From NCBI RefSeq assembly GCF_004010195.1, contig NC_057728.1, positions 6,789,988-6,853,987 of the forward strand: DNA of 64,000 bases. The letters are read 5' to 3'. The number at the start of each line of letters is the position of its first letter. The stretch's first letter is position 1. Shown here in pieces: positions 5,321 to 63,875 of the stretch. This stretch comes from Chiloscyllium plagiosum. Taxonomy: Eukaryota. The notes beneath the pieces were generated by a model. The model had not been told where the DNA came from. It saw only the letters and a list, made by a program, of their open reading frames with translations, and did no database searches. The position numbers and the translations under genes were made by a program.

Positions 5321-5839
5321 CTACTCAGACCTCTTGGCATTCCAACCGGAACTCTATCAACAAACACTTTGACTTGGATCTCATTTACCACTCCATGAGA
5401 AAAGAATGGGAAATGATGTCACCAACTCGAGGAAACCTAAACACATAAATAGAAAGCGGGCCATGCCATCAGTGCTTCATCCGGAGGCTCACTGATAATG
5501 TTACTTAGTATGGTGATGAAATGTCTGAAAATGAACCTTCCAGCCCAGCAAGCAAACCTACATCCAAAGGTTGATGCTTAAATTTAATAGTCAATAAGTG
5601 TGGGGCTAGAACAGCAAAGCTGGCCAGGCAGCATCTGAGGAGCAGGAGAGTCGACGTTTTGAGCATAAGCTCCTCATCTTTCCTAATGAAGGGTTTATGC
5701 TCGAAATGTTGACTCTCCTGCTCCTCGGATGCTGCCTGACCGGCTGTGCTTTCCCAGCACCACATTTTTTGTCTCTGACCTCCAGCAACTGCGGTCCTCA
5801 TTTTCTCCCGCTTAAATTTAGTAGATTTTTTTTTGTTTG

Positions 5840-16289: not shown

Positions 16290-17200
16290 ATGAAATCTTC
16301 AGACATAGGAGCAGAAACCGGCCATTGATCCAATGCGTATGCTCTGGCACTAAGTGAGGTTATAGCTAATCTAATAATCCTTAACCCCACATTCATGCAT
16401 AATTCTTGACTCCCCTCCTGATTAGAAATCTGTCTCAACCTTGGATATATTTAATGACCCAGCCTTTACAGCACTCTGCAGTAAAGAATTCCATAGACTC
16501 ACTCTGGTCTGAAAGAAGCTCTTCCACCTCATCTCTGTTTTAAATGGCTGACCATTTACTCTGAGAGTCTGCCCTCTGGTCCTTGACTCTCCCACAAGGG
16601 GAAACAAGCTCTCTGCATCTACTCTGCCAAACACTAAGAACCTTATAAATTTTATAGGTTGGCTTCTCATTCTTAAAATGCCATTGAATACTCAACCTCT
16701 CCTCATAAGAAAGTCCCTTTGTCCCCAGAATCGACCCAGTGAACCTCCTCTGGACTGTCTCCAATGTCAATTATCTTTGCTTAGGTCAGAGGATCAAAAC
16801 ATTTCACAGGATTCTACAGCTGCCTTCTCAATTACCTGCTGAACAGGAATGCTAGTTGTTTTGTGGGTCATGCATGAGGACTCCCAGATCCCTCTGCACT
16901 GCAATTTTCTGCAGTTTTTTTTTGCCAATCAAACAAATATTCAGCTCTTCAATTCTTCCTGCAAAAGTATATAACCTCACATTTCATTCCAATTTCTCAA
17001 CCTGTCCATATCCCTCTGCAGACTCTTGTGTAATTTTCACTAGTTACCTTCCCACTTATTTTTGTGTCATCTGCAAACTTGGCAATAGTATATTCACAGC
17101 TGTCATTCATCATTATCCATCATTAATAAATAATTGTGGCCCCAACACTGGTGCTTCTGGCTCGCCACTAGATACAGCTTGCCATAAAATGCACCCTTTA
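16290..17200 (-). mobile_element. Decayed CR1-clade LINE fragment
   Basis: Minus-strand ORFs LETVQRRFTGSILGTKGLSYEERL and LFPLVGESRTRGQTLRV...RVSLWNSL. Confidence 0.8.
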
Positions 17201-17427
17201 GCTAAATTCTTGGTCATGTAGTCATACAGTCATAGAGTCATAAAGTCATATAGCACAGAAGCAGACCCTTCAGTCCACACTGACCATATTCCCAAACTAA
17301 ACTAGTCCCACTTGTTGACCTATCACCTTCATCCCCTCCCCCACTCACCCATTGTACTCTATGCTACTTTCTCCCCACCCCCACCCTCCCCAAGCTTATC
17401 TCGCCACGCTTCAGGCTCTCTGCTTTT

Positions 17428-17463
17428 ATTCCTGATGAAGGGCTTTTGCCCGAAACGTCGATT
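17428..17463 (+). ncRNA. Minimal type I hammerhead ribozyme motif, copy 1
   Basis: CTGATGA (17432-17438), extra A, stem II GGGC-TTTT-GCCC, GAAA, palindromic ACGT helix III, GTC cleavage triplet ending at 17459. Helix I (attc/gatt) is short and has a mismatch. Confidence 0.7.
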
Positions 17464-17570
17464 TCGAGCTTCTCTGTGTGTTGGGTTTAAATTAGCAGAG
17501 GAATTTACCCCGTGTCGTAATAGTTTGGGGGCTTTTGTCCATTATTTGAACAAGTTTAGACAGATCTTTT

Positions 17571-17606
17571 ATTCCTGATGAAGGGCTTTTGCCCGAAACG
17601 TCGATT
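17571..17606 (+). ncRNA. Minimal type I hammerhead ribozyme motif, copy 2
   Basis: Identical core to copy 1: CTGATGA at 17575-17581 and GTC ending at 17602. Confidence 0.7.
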
Positions 17607-17668
17607 TCGAGTTTCTCTGTGTGTTAGGTTTAAATTAGCAGAGGAATTTACCCCGTGTCGTAATAGTT

Positions 17669-17683
17669 TGGGGGCTTTTGTCC
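17669..17683 (+). promoter_or_regulatory. Degenerate primer-binding site (tRNA-Pro-like); second copy at 17526-17540
   Basis: tgggggcttttgtcc lies 3 nt after the LTR end. The canonical tRNA-Pro PBS is TGGGGGCTCGTCCGGGAT. Confidence 0.6.
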
Positions 17684-20600
17684 ATTATTTGAACAAGTTT
17701 AGACAGATCTGGTCTGAGGTTACTTGTGGTTGGTTAAATTAAAAGTGAGAGAAATGGCTCTTAAAATTGCTAAAGAAGTTCTGGGTTTTGAACCTGATTC
17801 CCAAATTTGCCAACTTTAGAAAGAAAAGACCATACTCTTCAAATTAGTGAGAAGGTTAGGATTGGGTTTAACCAAGTACAAAAATAAAGCGGAAATTGTA
17901 AGGGAATTAGTCAAACACATGGAGGTGTCAAAGAAACAGACAAGTGCAGTCGAGTTGGAAAAACTTAAATTACAATTGAGGAAAATACAATTAGAAGATA
18001 AAGAAAGGGAGACAGAAAGAGAGAGAGAAGGTTCTTAGCTGAGCAAAAAGAGAAAGAATTTGAACTTGAGAAGTTGCTACTTAGTCAGCAAAGTCAAACT
18101 AACAGGATGGAGATTAAAAGAGAAGGTAGCGATATACACAAATACGTCAAAACTCTGCACACTTTGATGAGAAAGATGTCAAAGACTTCTATATTTCAAT
18201 TGAAAGTTGGCTAGGCAGATGGAGTGGTCCAAGGATTTATGGGTAAAGCTAGTTCGAAATAAACTGGTAGGCAGAGCTAGTGAGGTATTTGCCACACTGT
18301 CGGATGAGGAGTCAAGAGATTATGAAGAGGTTAAATAGGCTATTTAAAGTGCTTATGAACTGGTATCAGAAGTGTATAGACAGTGGTTCAGAAACATAAA
18401 GAAGGAACCAGGTCAGACTTATGTTGACTTTGAAATAATTAAACATAGTCATTTTGCTAGATGGGTGAGGGCCTTTCAGATAGGTAAAACCCATGAGGCT
18501 CTAAGAGAGATTATTCTGCTGGATGAGTTTAAAAACTCACTTCCAGAGATGGTAAGAATTCATGTGGAGGGACAGAAAGTTCAGGAAGTGAGAAGGGCAG
18601 CAGAATTAGCAGATGAGATGTTGGTGTATAAGACAAGCTTCTGGCCGGAGTTTCGTCCCCTTGAGAAAAGGGGAGATCCCACCCTGCAAAACAAAGAGTA
18701 GAGAACACTGGTAAGTGTTTACCACAGTTTAAAAAAGTAGCCCAAGAGGGTGGATAGGAGGTGAAAGGCCTCAGGTGTTTCCACTGTGGCAAAGTGGGAC
18801 ACATGAGGTCACAGTGCTGGTTGGTAAAGAAAGGCGCTGTGGGAAAAGATGGTGAAAGAAGCTAAGCCAGTGGCATTAATGAAAGTAGTAAAGGAGACCC
18901 CAAGAAGAGCCAAAGAGCTGCAGGAGAGTACACAGCCTAGGCATGGGCTGTGTATGGAGTTAGTGCCTGATCTCTAAAGAATTCACCTCTGTGGGTCAGA
19001 AAGAACAGGGTGAGAAAAACAAGAAGTTATAATTTTGAGAGATAGAGGATCTAACCAATCTCTAATAGTGTAAGGTGAATGAATTTGCACTCTTTCTGAT
19101 CTGTTACCTGAGAATGTGGTAATTTGTGGGATAGATGGACAGAAATATAGCATTCCCCTATGTAAGATCAGGTTGGAGTGCCAACTTAAGACTGGGGGAG
19201 TAATAGTGGGAATGAGTGACAGCATGTCAGTTCCAGGGATCCAGTTTGTTCTTGGGAATGATTTAGCAGGGTCCAAGGTGGGAATGACACCCTTGTTGTG
19301 GAGAAGCCCAAGGAAGATCAAGAAACCGAGGACTTAAAAGAAAAATATCCTGGTATTTTCCCAGAAGTTGTGGTAACAAGATCCCACTATCATGTCACAG
19401 TACAAAGTAAAGAGAAAGATGAAGGAGTTGAGGTTCAGTTAGTGGATACCCTGTTTGACGTAATGGTGCAGGAAAAACCTGAACAGGCAGAGTGTCAGAC
19501 AGAAGTGTTTAGTCCTGAAAGGCTAAGAGACTTGCAACAGCAAGAAAAGACAATAAAAGATACGTACTCTGAAAAGGAGGCAGAGAATATTCCTGAGGGC
19601 TATTTTCTGAAAGATGGAATCCTAGGACGGAAACGAGAACACGGCAGGTTAGTGCAGAGGAGAAATGGGCCATAGTGCACCAGATTGTGTTGCCGGTAGC
19701 ATACAGACAGGAGGTGTTATGGGTAGCATATGAACTACCTGTAGGAGGTCACCTAGGGGTTTGAAAGACTCAGGCTAAGGTGCCAAAACATTTTTATTGG
19801 CCTGGAATGCACAAGGATGTGGTTAACTTTTGCCGTACATGTCATACGTGCCAAATGGTAGGTAAGCTACAGGCGGTAATAAAACCAGTACCTTTGTTGC
19901 CAATTCCCACATTCGAAGAACCTTTCACACAGGTTATAATTGATTGTGTAGGTCCCCTCCAGAGAGCTAGAAAAGAGAAAGAATTAGAGAAACAGGTGTA
20001 AGTCACTGCCCTGCAGAGTGAGGAATCAAATCCAGATGATGTGGATTTTGATGTACCTCAAAATATATTTAAAAATGAAGAAGTCCTTGAGGTGTGGGAT
20101 AGGTTAGTAACCTATCTGTCTCAGGAGCATAGAATGCAGTTGAAAGATTTGTTACTGCAGTATAAGGACATATGTAAGAGTCAGATGGGGAGGACTAATG
20201 CTATTGTACCTGAGGTCAACGTAGGGAATACTGTTCCAATAAAACAACACCCGTATCGGCTTAATCCTTTCAAAGCCAGACAGGTCCAGATGGAGGTGGA
20301 GGCCATGCTTGACAAGGACATCATCGAACCAAGCCAGAGTGAGTGGAGTTCGCCAATCATCTTAGTTCCCAAACCGGACGGGGCTCAACAATTCTGCGTG
20401 GATTATCGGAAGGTCAACGTTGGTACAAAATTGGACTCATATGCAATACTGAGATTGGAGGACCGCATCGAGAAAGTTGGACAAGGCAGTTACTGACAGG
20501 TACCTTTATCAGAAATGATGAAAGAAATTTCTGCATTCATAACTCCAAATGGGCTATATCAGTTTAAAGTGATGCCCTTTGGAATGAAGAACGCACCCAC

Positions 20601-21588
20601 CACATTCCAAAGACTCATGAACAGAGTTGTGGCTGGGTTAACAAATTGTGTAGTCGATTTGGACAACGTAGTGATCTTTAGTAAATTCCGGAACGATCAC
20701 ATGGTACAGTTGGCAGACCTCTTTGAACGACTACAAGCAGCAAGACTGGTGATAAACAAAATTGAATTCGCAAAAGCAGAGGTGATGTAACATCAGTCAT
20801 GGAAGGTTGACTCCACAGAACGCAAAGATGAAGCCCATCGATGAATTTCCACGACAAACCTTGAAGAAAGAGGTTCTTTGATTTTTGGAACTAAGCGGAT
20901 TCTATCAGAAGTTTGTTCCAAATTTCAACACTGTAGTGGCACTGTTAACCGATTTGCTGAAGGAGAACACAAAGTTTAGGTGGATAGAACCATGCCAGAA
21001 TGCAGTCAACCATTTAAAAGCAATTTTACCTACCACGCCGGTTTTAGCTACACCAAGCTTTTCGAAACCTTTCAAAGTTGCCATCAATTCTAGTGACACA
21101 GGAGGTGGAGCTGTACTGCTGCAGGAAGTTGATGATGGGATTGAGCTGCCAGTTGGTGACTTCTCAAAGAAACTCAATATCCTCCAGAGGTAATACTCCA
21201 CTATCGAAAAATAACTGTTCAGTTTGGTACTGGCCACACAATATTTTAATGTGTACGTTATGAACAATGTGTCGGAGACAGTTGTGTACACGAATCACAA
21301 TCCTCTTATATTCTTGGAATGCTGTAAAGAAAAAATATGAAACTATTCCATTGGAGTTTTATGTTACAGGCTTCTAATTTACAAATCATACATGTTGTGG
21401 CTCGTAAGAATGTAATCGCAGATGCGTTATCACGGATTTAACTGATAGATTGGTATCTATTCAATGTTTTATATATGGGAAGAAGTTAATATGAACTTAG
21501 ATTAAAGTTATATGTACGTCATGATAATGTGGTTAAGGAATAGAAAATAAAAGAAACCACTTTTCATTATGATGGTACATTTTTTCTT

Positions 21589-21599
21589 AAGGGGGGAGG
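21589..21599 (+). promoter_or_regulatory. Polypurine tract
   Basis: aaggggggagg immediately precedes the TG that starts the 3' LTR. Confidence 0.85.
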
Positions 21600-22660
21600 T
21601 GTTATTAAGGCATGTACTATACCTTCAAGAGTGAGAGGAAGCTGGCAAGGACTGACCAAAAGCACAGAGAGTGCTGAACAAGGTAAAAATGTAACACTTG
21701 GTTAAAACAAATAGCTGGAGTTGTGTTGCCATGGAACAAAAACAATTCAAATTTGGCCAGTCAGTTTAAATAATGCCCAGATATCAGATTAGATTAGATA
21801 TTTGATTAGATTACTTACAGTGTGGAAACAGGCCCTTCGGCCCAACAAGTCCACATCGACCCGCCGAAGCATAACCAACCCAGACCCATTCTCCTACATT
21901 TATCCCTTCACCTAACACTACGGGCAATTTAGCGTGGCCAATTCACCTAACCTGCACATTTTTGGATTGTGGGAGGAAACCGGAGCACCCGGAGGAAACC
22001 CACGCAGACACGGGGAGAATGTGCAAACTCCACACAGTCAGTCGCCTGAGGCGGGAATTGAACCCGGGTCTCTGGCACTGTGAAGCAGCAGTGCTAACCA
22101 CTGTGCTACCGTGCCGCCCACAGTCCAATCGAATTTGAATTTAGTGTTTTGATGACATCAAACCAATGAAATGATCCAATATTTGGGGGTATAAAACCAG
22201 ATATTTTGAACAGTTAGGAGGAGAACTACCAAGCACCAACAAGTATAGACTGCTAACCAAATAGCCCTCTAAAAGGTACCTGTCCATAAGCTAAGTTGTG
22301 CAGCAAAAGACCGAAAAAGTGGTGACCCCGAAAAACCCAGAGGAAAATCTACAGAGGAAATTCGACAAAGCTGACTGGCTTTGAAATGTGATTTTTTAAA
22401 TATAAATCATAATCAGGTTTTTTTTTTAATCAGACCAGTATTGTAGAATGGGAGGTAAAAGATAGGCTTAAGAGAAAGGAGTTGTAAATAGTGGTTTTAA
22501 TGTTCTCTGTTGAACTTAATGAATAAAATTGTTAATTTTTATTTTAAATAGTGAAATCTGGAATAGCTCATTGCCTCTTGAAATTTAACAGATTACGCAT
22601 GAGTGAGCTTCTCCGTGTATCAGGTTTAAATTAGCAGAGGGGTTTACCCTGTTCATTACA
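21600..22660 (+). repeat. 3' LTR (contains a SINE insertion)
   Basis: Starts with TG after the PPT and ends with CA at 22660. TATA-like ggtataaaa near 22188 and AATAAA near 22522. Confidence 0.8.
21786..22120 (-). mobile_element. Full-length HE1-type V-SINE inserted in the 3' LTR
   Basis: Head gggcggcacggtagcacagtggttagcactgctgc, complete V-domain (tgtgtggagtttgcacattctccccgtgtctgcgtgggtttcctccgggtgctccggtttcctcccaca) and (tctaa)n tail. Confidence 0.9.
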
Positions 22661-24277: not shown

Positions 24278-26419
24278 ATATTTTCTACTATGTAACAGTC
24301 ACCACACTTCAAAACTAAAGCACTTTGGGTCTTAGAGTCATAGAGATGTACACCACAGAAACAGACCCTTCCGCCCTACTCATCCATGCTGACCAGATAT
24401 CTTAAATTAATCCAGTTTCATTTGCCAGCATTTGGCCCATATCCATCTAAACCCTTCCTATTCATATACCCACTCAGATTCCTTTCAAATGCTGTAATTG
24501 TAGCAGACTCCACCACGTGCTCTGGCATCTCATTCCACACATGCACTACCCTCAGTGTGAAAATGTTGCCCCTTAGGTCCTTTATAAATCTTTCCCCTTT
24601 CACCCTAAACCTATGCCTTCTAGTTTTTGACTCCCTTACCCTGGGAAAAAGAACTTGACTTTTCATCCTATCCATGCCCCTTGTGATACTATAAATCTCT
24701 ATAAGGTCACCCCTCAGACTCTGATACTCCAGAGTAAAAAAGCCCCAGCCTATTCAACTTCTTCCTATCGCTCGAACATCTTTAGATCACAAAGGTGTTA
24801 TGGACCAGTCAAGCCTTTGTTTCTTTGTGTGCTGCACCTTTTTGATTTGACAATAATTGGCAACAAGGCTGCTATATGTAAGTTCTGACAAGGGCAACAA
24901 ATCTCCCACTGCACAGGCTGAGCTGTTGCTGCTGGACATACAATGATGGATCTACTTGGAAAGGATTTAACAAGGTCGGCATGAGTTTATAATCTTGAGT
25001 TGCTTGAGGATGGAACTAGTAGAACAGGTAAAGGAGAACCTGACAATGTAGTATATTTGGATTTCAAGAGGGCTTTTGATAACGTGCCATATATAAAAGG
25101 TTAGTGGGGAAATTTAAAGCACAGGGGATTGTGACTAATATACTGGCATTGATTGAGAATTAGCTGAAAGTTTAGAAACCGATGGGGGGTATACCCCAGT
25201 GATTCATTCTATTGCCCCAGTTATTCAAGATATGCAGGTCAGGTGTCCTTTATCTGGAGGTCCAAGAAATGAAGAGACATAACAAACCAACACTTTGTTT
25301 TGAAAGGGGACCTGTTCTGAGGTGGCATCTCAAACAAATACTGTGGGTGCTGGAAATCTGAAAGAATCACAGGGATTTGGGGCCTCTGGAAAGAAACGTT
25401 ACATGACCCAAAGGACCAGAATGAGCCTAAATGTGATTCTTTTCAAAGGGTCTAAACTTAGCTTGTCTACAGGTATTGTTCAGGCCCTTAGTTTATAATT
25501 TGCTTTTATTTACTATCTGACATCCTTTCAACGAAAGATACAGAACCACCAGAGTGACCATCTGTTGCGAGAATTGTAAATGGTGCAGTCGTGAACAGGG
25601 AAAGGAGCCTGTAATTCATAGAGTCATACAGCATGAAAATAAACCCTTTGGTCCAAATTGTCCTAAAATGACCTAGTCCCATGTGCCAGCATCTGGCCCA
25701 ACTTCCTCTCAACCCTTCTTATTCATATACACATCCAGGTGCCTTTTAAATGTTACAATTGTACTCACCTCCAACACTTCCTCGGGCAGCTCATTCCATC
25801 CACATCCCACCCTCTGCGTGAAAAACTTACCCCTCAGGTCCCTTTTAAATCTTCACTTCAAGCCCTGGTGAAGTGTAGCTATCAGGGGTTTTGAAACACG
25901 AGTGAAGTGCAATATTGAAATCCACCTCAGAACAATACTATCATGCTACTTAGACGCGTTGTCTGTGCAAATACACGTTGGCATCTCAAACAAATACTGT
26001 GGGTGCTGGAAATCTGAAAGAATCACAGGGAATGCTGGGGAAACATGTCATGTCATTTGCAATTTAATGCCTGGAAAGTGGAAAGATCAATGGGCTCAGG
26101 ATGCTCTCTTCATCCCAAAGCTAATGTATACAGAGGAACCTCGATTATCCGAATATCAATATCCGAAAATCTGATTATCCAAAGGAGATCTCGAGGTCCC
26201 GACAGAAACATTACATCAAAGATGGGTGTCCAACACTGATCGTGTCTTTTGTTTACAGTGATTAAAAGTGCTGCCGAAAACAGTCCTGGACTGACGGGAG
26301 TGCAGGCACTGTCTCTAAATGACTGACCTCTCACTCCACTTCTCTCTCTCATCCTACACTTTCCATGGAGTTCTACACAGGCGTGCGTCTAAACCCCCCC
26401 CTTCCCCAGATAATCTCTC
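24278..26419 (-). repeat. Right arm of the inverted duplication
   Basis: Reverse complement of 8201-10292 apart from point changes and a 59-for-10-nt replacement at 25316-25374. Carries one end of the MITE (TA-CAGAGGAACCTCG at 26131). Confidence 0.95.
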
Positions 26420-62309: not shown

Positions 62310-63665
62310 AGAACAGACATCCAATCCCTCTCCACCTCCATCTGCCATGCCCAGGGCCTCCAAGCCCTCCATTTCTTTCTCTCCCAATGTCCCCAACAGT
62401 ACCCTTCCACTGACACATTCGTTTGGCTGAACTGGTCCTCACCCTCAGCAATTTCTCCTTTGAATCCTCCCACTTCCTCCAGATGGAAGGGGTAGCCACG
62501 GGCCACAGCTATGTCTTTCTCTTTGTCGGCTACGTAGAACCGTCTATCTTCTGTAGTTACACCGGCACCACTCTCCAACTCTTCCTCCGCTACATTGATG
62601 ACTGCATTGGTGCCACCTCGTGCTCCCACAAGGAGGATGAGCAGTTCATCAACTTCACCAGCACATTCCACCCTGACCTTAAATTCACATGGACCATCTG
62701 ACACCTCCCTCCCCTTCCTGGACACCTCCAGCTCTATCAATGACAACCGACTTGACACTGGCTTTTATTTTGCAAAGCCACCAACTCCCACAGCTACCTG
62801 GATTATACCTCTTTCCACCCTACCTCCTGTAAAAATGCCATCCCATATTCCCAATTCCTCTGCCTCCACTGTATCTGCTTCAAGGAAGATAATTTCCACC
62901 ACAGAACACACCAGATGACCACAATTTTCCTTCCCACGTGGTTGAAGATTTTGCACCTCTGCCCTCAAACCCCACCCCTCAACCATACCAAGGACCGAAC
63001 ACACCTTTTTTTTTCCCCCGCCCCCGCCCGTCCTCACCTTTCACCCTACCAACCTCCCCATAAACTGTATTATCCACCGACATTTCCACCTCCAAACTGA
63101 CCCCACCACCAGGGATATGTTTCCCTCCCCACCCCTTTCTCCTTTCCACAAAGACTGTTCCGTCTAACTGCCTGGTCAGGTCCACCACCCCCTCCCTTCC
63201 TGGCACCTTCTCCTGCCACCACAGGGGTCTCAAAACCTGCACCCACACTACCTCCATCTAAGGCCCCAAAGGAGCCTTTCTCATCCATCAAAGTTTCACC
63301 TGCACATCCACCAATGCCACTTATTGTATCAGTTGCTCCTGCTGCGGTCTCCTCTAAGCTGAGGAAACTGGATGCCCTTCTCAGTGTTTAAGGGAACCTC
63401 TCTGGGACACTCTTACCAATCGACCCCACCGCCCTGTGGTCTAATATTTCAACTCCCCTGTCTGACCTATCACCTTCATCCCCACCCCCATTCACCCATT
63501 GTACTCTTTGCTACCTTCTCTCCAGCCCCACCACCCCTTCCATTTATCTCCACCGCAGAGGCTCCCTGCCTCTATTCCTGATGAAGGGCTTTTGCCCGAA
63601 ATGTCGTTTTTCATGCTGTTTGGATGCTGTCTGACCTGCTGTGCTTTTCCAGCACCACTCTCTAA
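62310..63665 (+). mobile_element. Decayed Penelope-like element (RT to 3' end) in intron 10
   Basis: HFLQMEGVATG...LFVGYVE...FLRYIDDCIG...FHPDLKFTW (PLE RT). Terminus with a hammerhead motif at 63578-63605. Confidence 0.9.
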
Positions 63666-63875
63666 TCTAAATAATACATAACACAACGCAATCCTTTTTT
63701 TTTTTAAACCATCTTTTTACAATGACCCTGAAGGCAAATGTTTAACTTGTCTGACAATACTTTTCTTTTTAAAATCTCGTGTGGAAGCTACATTTTTCTT
63801 GCTGTGACTTGTGGTTATAACAAGTCTTGGGTGCTTCTCTTATTTCTATAACAGTTTAATGTGTTTCTCTTCTAG

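What the first reader, a model, noticed from the sequence alone, without database searches (positions are those of the whole stretch)
17423..17710. Retrozyme-like chimera: two tandem hammerhead motifs bracketing an LTR end and tRNA primer-binding site
Seen: a PLE terminus carrying CTGATGA-A-GGGC-TTTT-GCCC-GAAACGTC is fused directly to the last 57 bp of the Gypsy 5' LTR and its PBS. The whole 143-bp junction is tandemly duplicated. Both copies keep a perfect core, a fully paired stem II and the ACGT palindrome, while most other copies of this family in the window carry at least one change. Known: minimal PLE hammerheads with a palindromic helix III are thought to cleave as dimers. Retrozymes are hammerhead-delimited units that yield circular RNAs, and the plant ones use a PBS and Gypsy RT. 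Inference: a + strand transcript could form an intramolecular double hammerhead, cleave after 17459 and 17602, and release a 143-nt circularisable RNA bearing a PBS. That would be a de novo proto-retrozyme built from two unrelated retroelements. Caveats: helix I is weak, the PBS is degenerate, no promoter is evident, and it may be an inert accident.
Basis: partly seen in the sequence, partly recalled or inferred. Interest (0 to 1): 0.72.

Follow-up and report, generated by a model that had tools for sequence, protein, structure and literature searches.

The report
Penelope hot spot in Gypsy LTR
A ribozyme-bearing jumping-gene end is joined to the tail of an older retrotransposon's terminal repeat, at a spot where such joins recur at six other places in this genome, and the join was then copied once in tandem; this pair is likely an inert accident rather than a circular-RNA element, but the recurring join point is unexpected.

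Summary
The anatomy is real in the assembly: a 143-bp unit twice (2 differences), each with a Penelope-like (PLE) minimal hammerhead, the last 57 bp of a Gmr1-like Gypsy LTR and a decayed tRNA-Pro PBS. The proto-retrozyme reading is weak. The exact 28-nt hammerhead occurs 18,175 times in the genome, and roughly 100-175 hammerhead-containing tandem duplications are expected by chance. No second copy of the unit was found. It lacks a PPT, an LTR start and a TSD, has lost the LTR's terminal CA and the distal helix I, and its double-hammerhead fold costs 20-23 kcal/mol, the same as with a shuffled spacer. Reads neither confirmed nor refuted the duplication or expression. New by-product: PLE pieces join this LTR family at the same nucleotide at 7 loci, including the only PLE junction in 61.7 kb of LTR from 100 unselected copies; 0 of 66 ordinary PLE ends share that flank. 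The junction is best read as a PLE insertion hot spot at the base of a predicted hairpin, later duplicated locally. The scan has filed similar tandem PLE hammerheads as ordinary on other DNA; it had no note on this unit or the hot spot.

The parts
17316..17465 (+). 3' piece of a Penelope-like element (pseudo-LTR), ending only 6 nt after the predicted ribozyme cut; most copies of the family run on to about +60 or +100
   Evidence: BLAST to other PLE copies up to 96%, 4 private differences in 150 nt; end distribution; a longer copy at 63000-63670 reads as a GIY-YIG-type C-terminus (read by eye, motif recalled, not scanned)
17423..17565 (+). Tandem unit, copy 1 (43 nt PLE + 57 nt LTR end + PBS + leader)
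17566..17710 (+). Tandem unit, copy 2 (with the 2-nt CT microhomology); continues into the Gypsy leader
17432..17459 (+). Minimal type I hammerhead motif 1 (core, extra A, 4-bp stem II, ACGT palindrome); predicted cut after 17459
   Evidence: architecture as in PMC4209133
17575..17602 (+). Minimal type I hammerhead motif 2; predicted cut after 17602; lacks both distal helix I strands
17465..17466 (+). PLE-LTR junction at the recurrent LTR site GGT^GAG
   Evidence: same LTR nucleotide at L002/L053, L054, L129, L226, L227, and at -1 in L302
17466..17522 (+). Last 57 bp of the 5' LTR (copy 2: 17609-17665); terminal CA changed to TA; the upstream ~660 bp of the LTR are absent from the window
17526..17551 (+). 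Decayed tRNA-Pro primer-binding site (copy 2: 17669-17694)
   Evidence: duplex -31.5 kcal/mol against -50.8 for a perfect 24-mer; 23rd of 29 family copies
17711..21599 (+). Broken internal region of a Gmr1-like Gypsy element: SCAN-type gag, integrase zinc domain before RT and RNase H; PPT at 21589-21599
   Evidence: Pfam SCAN 1e-9, Integrase_H2C2 3e-12, RVT_1 5e-15, RT_RNaseH_2 9e-15 on separate short frames; domain order as in 10.1101/2025.03.03.638093
21600..22660 (+). 3' LTR of the same element, with no PLE piece in it; interrupted by a SINE-like repeat at about 21790-22120

Best explanation
A Penelope-like element is joined to an old Gmr1-like Gypsy LTR at a nucleotide where such joins recur in this genome, likely because Penelope insertions favour that site, and the junction was likely duplicated once, later, by a local DNA event, leaving a pair that is likely inert. 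Steps: (1) shown: an old Gypsy copy (5' remnant and 3' LTR 85% alike; frames broken). (2) shown: PLE pieces abut this LTR nucleotide at 7 loci, with different PLE ends and different amounts of upstream LTR lost (none, with a 14-bp duplication, in L227; about 65 bp in L302; about 500 bp in L054 and L129; all of it here and in L002). (3) inferred: the PLE endonuclease nicks one strand at this site and the other 13-15 nt downstream; the site is the base of a weak predicted hairpin, and short matches between the PLE tail and the target probably helped the two short-tailed joins. (4) inferred: a 143-bp duplication through 2-nt microhomology copied the junction after the insertion. (5) predicted: a transcript would rarely reach the double-hammerhead fold, and a circle could not be integrated by Gypsy enzymes for lack of a PPT, an LTR start and the terminal CA.
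For: Unit found once: BLAST of the own genome gives one full match among 40 scored of 1310 candidates; two junction patterns give only the window's copies, plus L002 in one. Base rates: 9 two-copy duplications of >=50 bp in 642 kb and 31 intact hammerheads per Mb predict about 110-175 hammerhead-containing duplications genome-wide; a tight pattern finds 37 same-strand pairs 128-158 nt apart, among the 30 viewed 4 other plain two-copy duplications (L060, L061, L079, L083). Folding: forcing the dimer costs 19.5-22.7 kcal/mol; shuffled spacers 21.2 +/- 3.8 (n=100); the putative circle z = -0.2. The UUCAGGC/GCCUGAA helix seen in most full-context native copies cannot form here. Hot spot: site-agnostic searches gave 5 junction loci, 4 at the site (window, L002, L129, L302) and 1 at +15 (L131). 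In 100 unselected LTR copies (61.7 kb) the only PLE junction inside an LTR is at -1 (chance about 0.5%). 0 of 66 ordinary full-tail PLE ends are followed by GAG. Order: 5 private Gypsy changes are shared by both copies; PLE piece 4/150 private changes against 2/143 between copies. Literature: 1 of 9 Xenopus dimers cleaved (10.64898/2026.07.22.740005); a schistosome minimal hammerhead dimer cleaved weakly (PMC4209133); the anole PLE hammerhead needed protein and was dispensable for insertion (PMC11167929).
Against: The duplication's 5' breakpoint lies 7-9 nt before the core, where about a third of PLE copies begin (30 of 95 contexts within 20 nt, rough estimate), which hints that PLE machinery rather than plain slippage made the second copy. 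The age contrast rests on 4 and 2 substitutions. Nearest-neighbour energies ignore tertiary contacts and protein help; even a natural 8-copy array scores 13 kcal/mol, so only the comparison with shuffles counts. The LTR bases GAG do add 3 pairs to helix I in some constrained folds. Four of the seven hot-spot loci came from searches tied to this site or to the window, and no antisense PLE was found joined to the upstream half exactly at GGT among 25 loci. The cause of the hot spot is untested; the DNA hairpin is weak (-4 to -6 kcal/mol, starting at the site in 4 of 6 copies). Earlier scan notes (not checked here) say PLE hammerheads of this genome do cut in vivo.
Confidence: 0.68

Rival explanations
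1. The duplication is an assembly artefact: two haplotypes or overlapping contig ends written in tandem. The PLE-LTR junction is real but single.
For: 4 of 9 sampled two-copy duplications lie within 450 bp of an N gap; the assembly has 101,977 contigs; the period is near short-read length; two differences in 143 bp could be alleles.
Against: This one is 6.5 kb from the nearest gap; its junction has a 2-nt microhomology and begins where PLE copies often begin.
Confidence: 0.15
2. The second copy was made by the PLE machinery itself: reverse transcription or template switching copied the hammerhead end plus about 100 nt of downstream Gypsy sequence back into the same place. Still inert, but RNA- or RT-made.
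For: Breakpoint 7-9 nt before the core, in the family's main start cluster; L079 has the same layout with 8 nt of flank; PLEs form partial tandems and capture host DNA (PMC3846280 passages).
Against: The two copies are closer (2/143) than the PLE piece is to its family (4/150), so the copy is probably not from the first insertion event (hand Poisson estimate about 0.02, small numbers). Three other two-copy duplications (L060, L061, L083) break at arbitrary places.
Confidence: 0.11
3. One reading: the pair is transcribed, folds as a double hammerhead, cuts after 17459 and 17602 and yields a 143-nt circle with a PBS, a newborn retrozyme.
For: Both cores, stems II and ACGT palindromes are intact and the nested dimer topology is possible. 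It meets the purely operational definition of a non-LTR retrozyme (two tandem units with complete motifs; 10.64898/2026.07.22.740005). The PBS still pairs at -31.5 kcal/mol. Axolotl ribozymes cleave better as dimers (PMC7229834 passages).
Against: No second copy found; no fold advantage over shuffles, circle not self-paired beyond chance; distal helix I lost; LTR promoter region absent; no PPT, LTR start, TSD or terminal CA.
Confidence: 0.06

Closest known systems
Minimal hammerheads in pseudo-LTRs of metazoan Penelope-like elements (Cervera and De la Pena 2014, PMC4209133; read parts 1-2 of 4)
   Same: Conserved core, unpaired base before stem II, G10.1-C11.1 pair, palindromic 15.2-16.2 with no helix III loop, location at a PLE end, thousands of dispersed copies.
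   Different: The 3' strand is cut 6 nt after the cleavage site and replaced by LTR sequence, so proximal helix I is 2 bp plus scattered pairs (4-5 bp in the paper's schistosome motifs).
Animal non-LTR retrozymes (PMC7229834, passages; 10.64898/2026.07.22.740005, parts 1-3 of 5)
   Same: Tandem units with a type I hammerhead derived from a PLE pseudo-LTR; reported in one cartilaginous fish; dimers are counted.
   Different: Single locus, two units, minimal not canonical motif, unit not self-paired, 100 of 143 nt are Gypsy-derived and include a PBS, which the described animal repeats lack.
Plant LTR retrozymes (PMC4918200, passages)
   Same: Hammerhead upstream of a Gypsy-type LTR 3' end and PBS; two direct repeats.
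   Different: Type I minimal instead of type III; no PPT or LTR 5' box, no 4-bp TSD, no central region between 300-400 bp LTRs, tRNA-Pro instead of tRNA-Met, no family of copies.
Gmr1-like Gypsy elements (10.1101/2025.03.03.638093, passages)
   Same: SCAN-type capsid domain, integrase before RT-RNase H, abundant in fish.
   Different: This copy is broken, and its 5' LTR is reduced to 57 bp; a protease domain was not hit in place by Pfam.
PLE target-primed insertion (Frangieh et al. 2024, PMC11167929, parts 1-2 of 4; Arkhipova et al. 2013, PMC3846280, passages)
   Same: Two preferred 3' ends (here about +60 and +100), both target strands cut and extended, inverted copies, short TSDs, microhomology joins.
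   Different: Reported preference is for AT-rich DNA (ATT); here a fixed, non-AT-rich nucleotide in another element's LTR is hit repeatedly.

Membership tests
PLE minimal hammerhead | Core boxes, extra base after A9, closed stem II, palindromic 15.2-16.2 | tested here: met
PLE minimal hammerhead | Lies in a PLE terminal repeat | tested here: met
   17316-17465 matches 24 PLE copies at >=88%
PLE minimal hammerhead | Helix I of the native family preserved | tested here: not met
   3' strand replaced after +6; copy 2 also lacks the 5' strand
PLE minimal hammerhead | Self-cleavage as a dimer | not testable with these tools
   only folding energies
Animal non-LTR retrozyme | Two or more tandem units each with a complete hammerhead (operational definition) | tested here: met
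   definition; the paper's MFE filter was not applied
Animal non-LTR retrozyme | Multi-copy family or multimeric arrays of the unit | tested here: not met
   (BLAST scored 40 of 1310 candidates; patterns exact)
Animal non-LTR retrozyme | Highly self-paired monomer | tested here: not met
   circular fold -28.2 kcal/mol, 50% paired, z = -0.2 against 200 mononucleotide shuffles
Animal non-LTR retrozyme | Expressed as linear and circular monomers | tested here: inconclusive
   one poly(A) run, 2% read, no read on 17502-17561; unsuitable for circles
LTR retrozyme | LTR 3' end followed by a PBS | tested here: met
   present but decayed; terminal CA is TA
LTR retrozyme | PPT and LTR 5' end within the element | tested here: not met
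   nearest PPT and LTR start at 21589-21600, 4 kb away
LTR retrozyme | Type III hammerhead inside each LTR | tested here: not met
   type I minimal motif; the 3' LTR has none
LTR retrozyme | 4-bp TSD and dispersed copies | tested here: not met
   pair is continuous with PLE on the left and Gypsy leader on the right
Gmr1-like Gypsy element (host element) | SCAN-type gag and integrase upstream of RT-RNase H | tested here: met
Gmr1-like Gypsy element (host element) | Phylogenetic placement of RT | not tested
   no tree built

The most novel reading that the evidence does not exclude
Penelope elements in this genome aim at one nucleotide at the base of the Gypsy LTR's terminal hairpin, and so repeatedly drop a hammerhead just upstream of an LTR end and PBS (twice on full elements: here and L002). 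This is a recurring natural route to half of an LTR retrozyme, and the duplicated copy in this window is the first to close the loop and release a PBS-bearing circle with help from PLE protein. The targeting half alone I put at about 0.8; the figure below is for the whole claim.
Probability: 0.05. Interest if true: 0.72.

Novelty: new variant of a known kind. Interest (0 to 1): 0.3.

Why it matters
As a retrozyme candidate it matters little: pairs like this arise by chance in a genome with over 18,000 exact copies of the motif. The recurring junction matters more. Vertebrate PLE target choice is known mainly as a loose AT-rich preference, and a nucleotide-precise site in another retroelement's LTR, with partner nicks 13-15 nt away, gives a defined substrate for testing whether PLE endonucleases read sequence, DNA structure or RNA-DNA complementarity. 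It would also be a concrete route by which hammerheads come to sit next to Gypsy priming signals, an arrangement so far described in plant retrozymes, whose origin is open.

Tried and rejected
Run search: no RNA holder listed; best DNA holders had 0.43 of the words; no evidence either way. Contig lays: two runs match 17067-17258 with no difference, but no listed piece spans the PLE-LTR or the duplication junction; X1 and X13 have zero depth at 17538-17555, X2 about 22; contigs drop repeat variants and the tables were cut, so this is a hole, not absence. Pieces of 154-164 nt with 1 difference over 17754-17918 in X8 and X13 suggest the Gypsy copy exists in related species; not followed up. RNA run X21 (poly(A) single-cell, 2% read): 169 reads laid, nearly all ordinary PLE ends, none on 17502-17561, no pile of read ends; too weak and blind to circles. 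Rfam: nothing at gathering score, 5 chance hits at E 0.4-5.6. The promoter scan is for bacterial promoters and says nothing here. A chimeric transposing PLE-Gypsy family was rejected: PLE ends differ at each locus, L002's internal region is 79% identical like any other copy, and the 3' LTRs carry no PLE at this site. Splicing as the source of the junction (the site looks like a donor, GAG|GTGAG) was rejected: joins fall 2 nt inside the motif, and upstream LTR survives on the far side of the PLE in L054, L129, L227 and L302. A general PLE preference for GAG was rejected (0 of 66). The 42-of-69 truncation count was dropped because it mixes subfamilies and fold-backs. In one search, 25 loci with a changed base after GGT gave no PLE joined exactly there (1 antisense PLE at +13, 1 other repeat at +6, the rest point changes or small deletions). 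In one search, 4 matches against 1 in the control; all 4 were PLE junctions, 2 of them new. In one search, 5 of 7 matches were plain LTR variants. Literature searches for a PLE hot spot in LTRs and for animal hammerhead-PBS chimeras listed nothing on point; I saw listings only for those, and subscription journals are not covered. No supplements were read; the table of retrozyme families in 10.64898/2026.07.22.740005 (bioRxiv supplements are closed) could show whether its cartilaginous fish set holds similar units.
Full report
Observation. The window holds a 143-bp unit twice at 17423-17710. The copies differ at two transitions, 17469/17612 and 17483/17626, and meet at a 2-nt CT microhomology. 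Each unit has 43 nt of a Penelope-like element (PLE) end with a minimal hammerhead motif (17432-17459, 17575-17602), then 57 nt that match the end of the LTR found at 21600-22660 and in 29 of 29 other family loci fetched, then a primer-binding site and leader. The PBS is complementary to this genome's tRNA-Pro genes but has a 2-nt insertion and 4 mismatches; its duplex is -31.5 kcal/mol against -50.8 for a perfect 24-mer and ranks 23rd of 29 family copies. The LTR's terminal CA has become TA. Downstream lies a broken element with SCAN, integrase zinc-finger, RT and RNase H domains in that order, the Gmr1-like order (10.1101/2025.03.03.638093, passages). The genome has 3.56 Gb in 101,977 contigs; that it is shark-like rests on recall of the repeats and on earlier scan notes.

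Is the intact, paired motif special? No. The exact 28-nt motif occurs 18,175 times. In 642 kb sampled there are 62 motifs, 20 intact, and 9 two-copy tandem duplications of 50 bp or more (the window's own included). These rates predict about 110-175 duplications containing a whole intact hammerhead. A tight pattern for same-strand pairs 128-158 nt apart finds 37 matches; the 30 viewed include partial PLE tandems, four other plain two-copy duplications and an 8-copy array of a 72-nt unit.

Is the unit mobile? No sign of it. BLAST of the own genome gives one full-length match (40 of 1310 candidates scored), and exact junction patterns give only the window's two copies, plus L002 in the looser one. 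There is no PPT or LTR start in the unit, no TSD around the pair, and the upstream part of the 5' LTR, which would carry the promoter, is absent from the window.

Could it cut? Native copies can pair UUCAGGC upstream with GCCUGAA downstream of the cut as a distal helix I. Copy 1 has lost the downstream strand, copy 2 both. Forcing the nested double hammerhead costs 19.5-22.7 kcal/mol in three windows; 100 shuffled spacers give 21.2 +/- 3.8; the 72-nt array gives 13.1 and three other pairs 16.7-28.0. Absolute values overstate the barrier because tertiary contacts and proteins are ignored, but nothing marks this spacer as tuned. The 143-nt circle folds like its shuffles (z = -0.2). In print, a minimal PLE hammerhead cleaved weakly even as a dimer (PMC4209133, parts 1-2), the anole one needed protein and was dispensable for insertion (PMC11167929, parts 1-2), and 1 of 9 Xenopus dimers cleaved (10.64898/2026.07.22.740005, parts 1-3). 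Against this, axolotl motifs cleave better as dimers (PMC7229834, passages), and unchecked scan notes report U6 fusions at PLE cut sites in this genome.

Reads. Contigs from four DNA runs and one poly(A) RNA run gave no listed piece across either junction and no RNA read on the unit's private part. These data cannot show absence, so the duplication stays confirmed in the assembly only. Four of nine sampled duplications lie beside N gaps, which keeps an artefact open; this one is 6.5 kb from a gap.

How the junction arose. The second-best BLAST hit, L002, has a PLE hammerhead joined to the same LTR nucleotide (GGT^GAG) with 10 more nt of tail. A 33-nt LTR pattern gave 88 matches with the usual T before the site (30 of 30 viewed intact) and 5 with C: the window's two, L002, one point change, and L054, a full PLE tail joined at the same base. 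Three site-agnostic gap patterns added L129 at the site and L131 at +15. A site-specific pattern added L226 and L227; L227 is an antisense PLE starting at +14 that folds back and rejoins at the site, with a 14-bp target duplication. L203 is an antisense PLE at +13. For an unbiased check I took the first 100 of 652 copies of an 18-nt LTR anchor (91 fetched already held): in 61.7 kb of LTR there is one PLE junction, L302, at -1 (about 0.5% by chance). An earlier survey of 58 loci (38.7 kb, partly overlapping, 30 of them selected for an intact site) found none inside an LTR. Ordinary PLE ends show no such flank (0 of 66). So seven loci resume the LTR at this point, with different PLE ends and different losses of upstream LTR. 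That fits independent insertions into DNA, with nicks at 0 and at +13 to +15. The site is the 5' base of a weak predicted hairpin in 4 of 6 intact copies folded, and one PLE tail variant shares 7 complementary bases with it. Which of these matters is not tested. Four of the seven loci were found by searches tied to the window or the site; without the window, site-agnostic searches give 3 of 4.

Order of events. The LTR remnant and the 3' LTR differ at 7 of 48 sites; five private changes in the Gypsy part are shared by both units; the PLE piece has 4 private changes in 150 nt; the units differ at 2 of 143. This suggests Gypsy first, then PLE, then the duplication, on small numbers. The duplication starts 7-9 nt before the core, where many PLE copies start (30 of 95 within 20 nt, rough), so a PLE-made second copy remains possible.

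Comparison. It works like nested-insertion debris. It passes the operational test for an animal non-LTR retrozyme (two units with complete motifs) but fails on copy number and self-pairing; it shares an LTR end and PBS with plant LTR retrozymes (PMC4918200, passages) but fails on PPT, LTR start, TSD, ribozyme type and spread. Searches for a PLE hot spot in LTRs or an animal hammerhead-PBS chimera listed nothing on point (listings only). The scan's notes hold 14 tandem PLE-hammerhead findings, the 8 shown all filed as known or ordinary, and none on this sequence or the hot spot.

Verdict. The retrozyme reading is unlikely (about 0.06). The pair is most likely an inert local duplication of a PLE-LTR junction. 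The junction itself records a probable PLE insertion hot spot, which is the part worth following. Interest 0.3.

Noticed in passing
L072-L077 (G000:C15:55.27 Mb; L074:1299-1880): Array of 8.1 copies of a 72-nt PLE hammerhead unit, 99% identical, 8 intact motifs, next to an N gap; a better non-LTR retrozyme candidate than this finding (dimer cost 13 kcal/mol).
   Followed up: partly
G000:C39596:298-520: Array of a 45-nt unit that is little more than the hammerhead; similar 45-55-nt head-to-tail joints appear in run contigs (table 5c).
   Followed up: no
L002/L053 (G000:C5:57.115 Mb, - strand): Second hammerhead-LTR end-PBS chimera on a full Gypsy copy, single unit, degenerate core, upstream LTR missing for at least 10 kb.
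   Followed up: yes
L227:1410-1510: Antisense PLE with a fold-back stub inserted in a solo LTR with a 14-bp target duplication; marks both nick positions of the hot spot.
   Followed up: partly
window and sampled regions: PLE 3' ends cluster at about +60-70 and +95-105 after the cut site (23 and 41 of 95), like the two RT start sites described for the anole element; many short copies carry 8-15 bp target duplications.
   Followed up: partly
L047 (G000:C1:1.118 Mb): Near-perfect hairpin of two inverted hammerhead copies joined 3 nt apart (-76 kcal/mol).
   Followed up: no
window 21790-22120: SINE-like repeat inside the 3' LTR, 92% identical to a copy near L002 (HE1-like by recall, not tested).
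   Followed up: no
window 25323-25375 and 25979-26031: 53-bp exact direct repeat 656 bp apart, possibly a large target duplication or a recent segmental copy.
   Followed up: no
window 5653-5710: Back-to-back inverted, decayed PLE hammerhead pair.
   Followed up: no
sampled 642 kb: 4 of 9 near-identical two-copy duplications lie within 450 bp of an N gap, a caution for any tandem finding in this assembly.
   Followed up: partly
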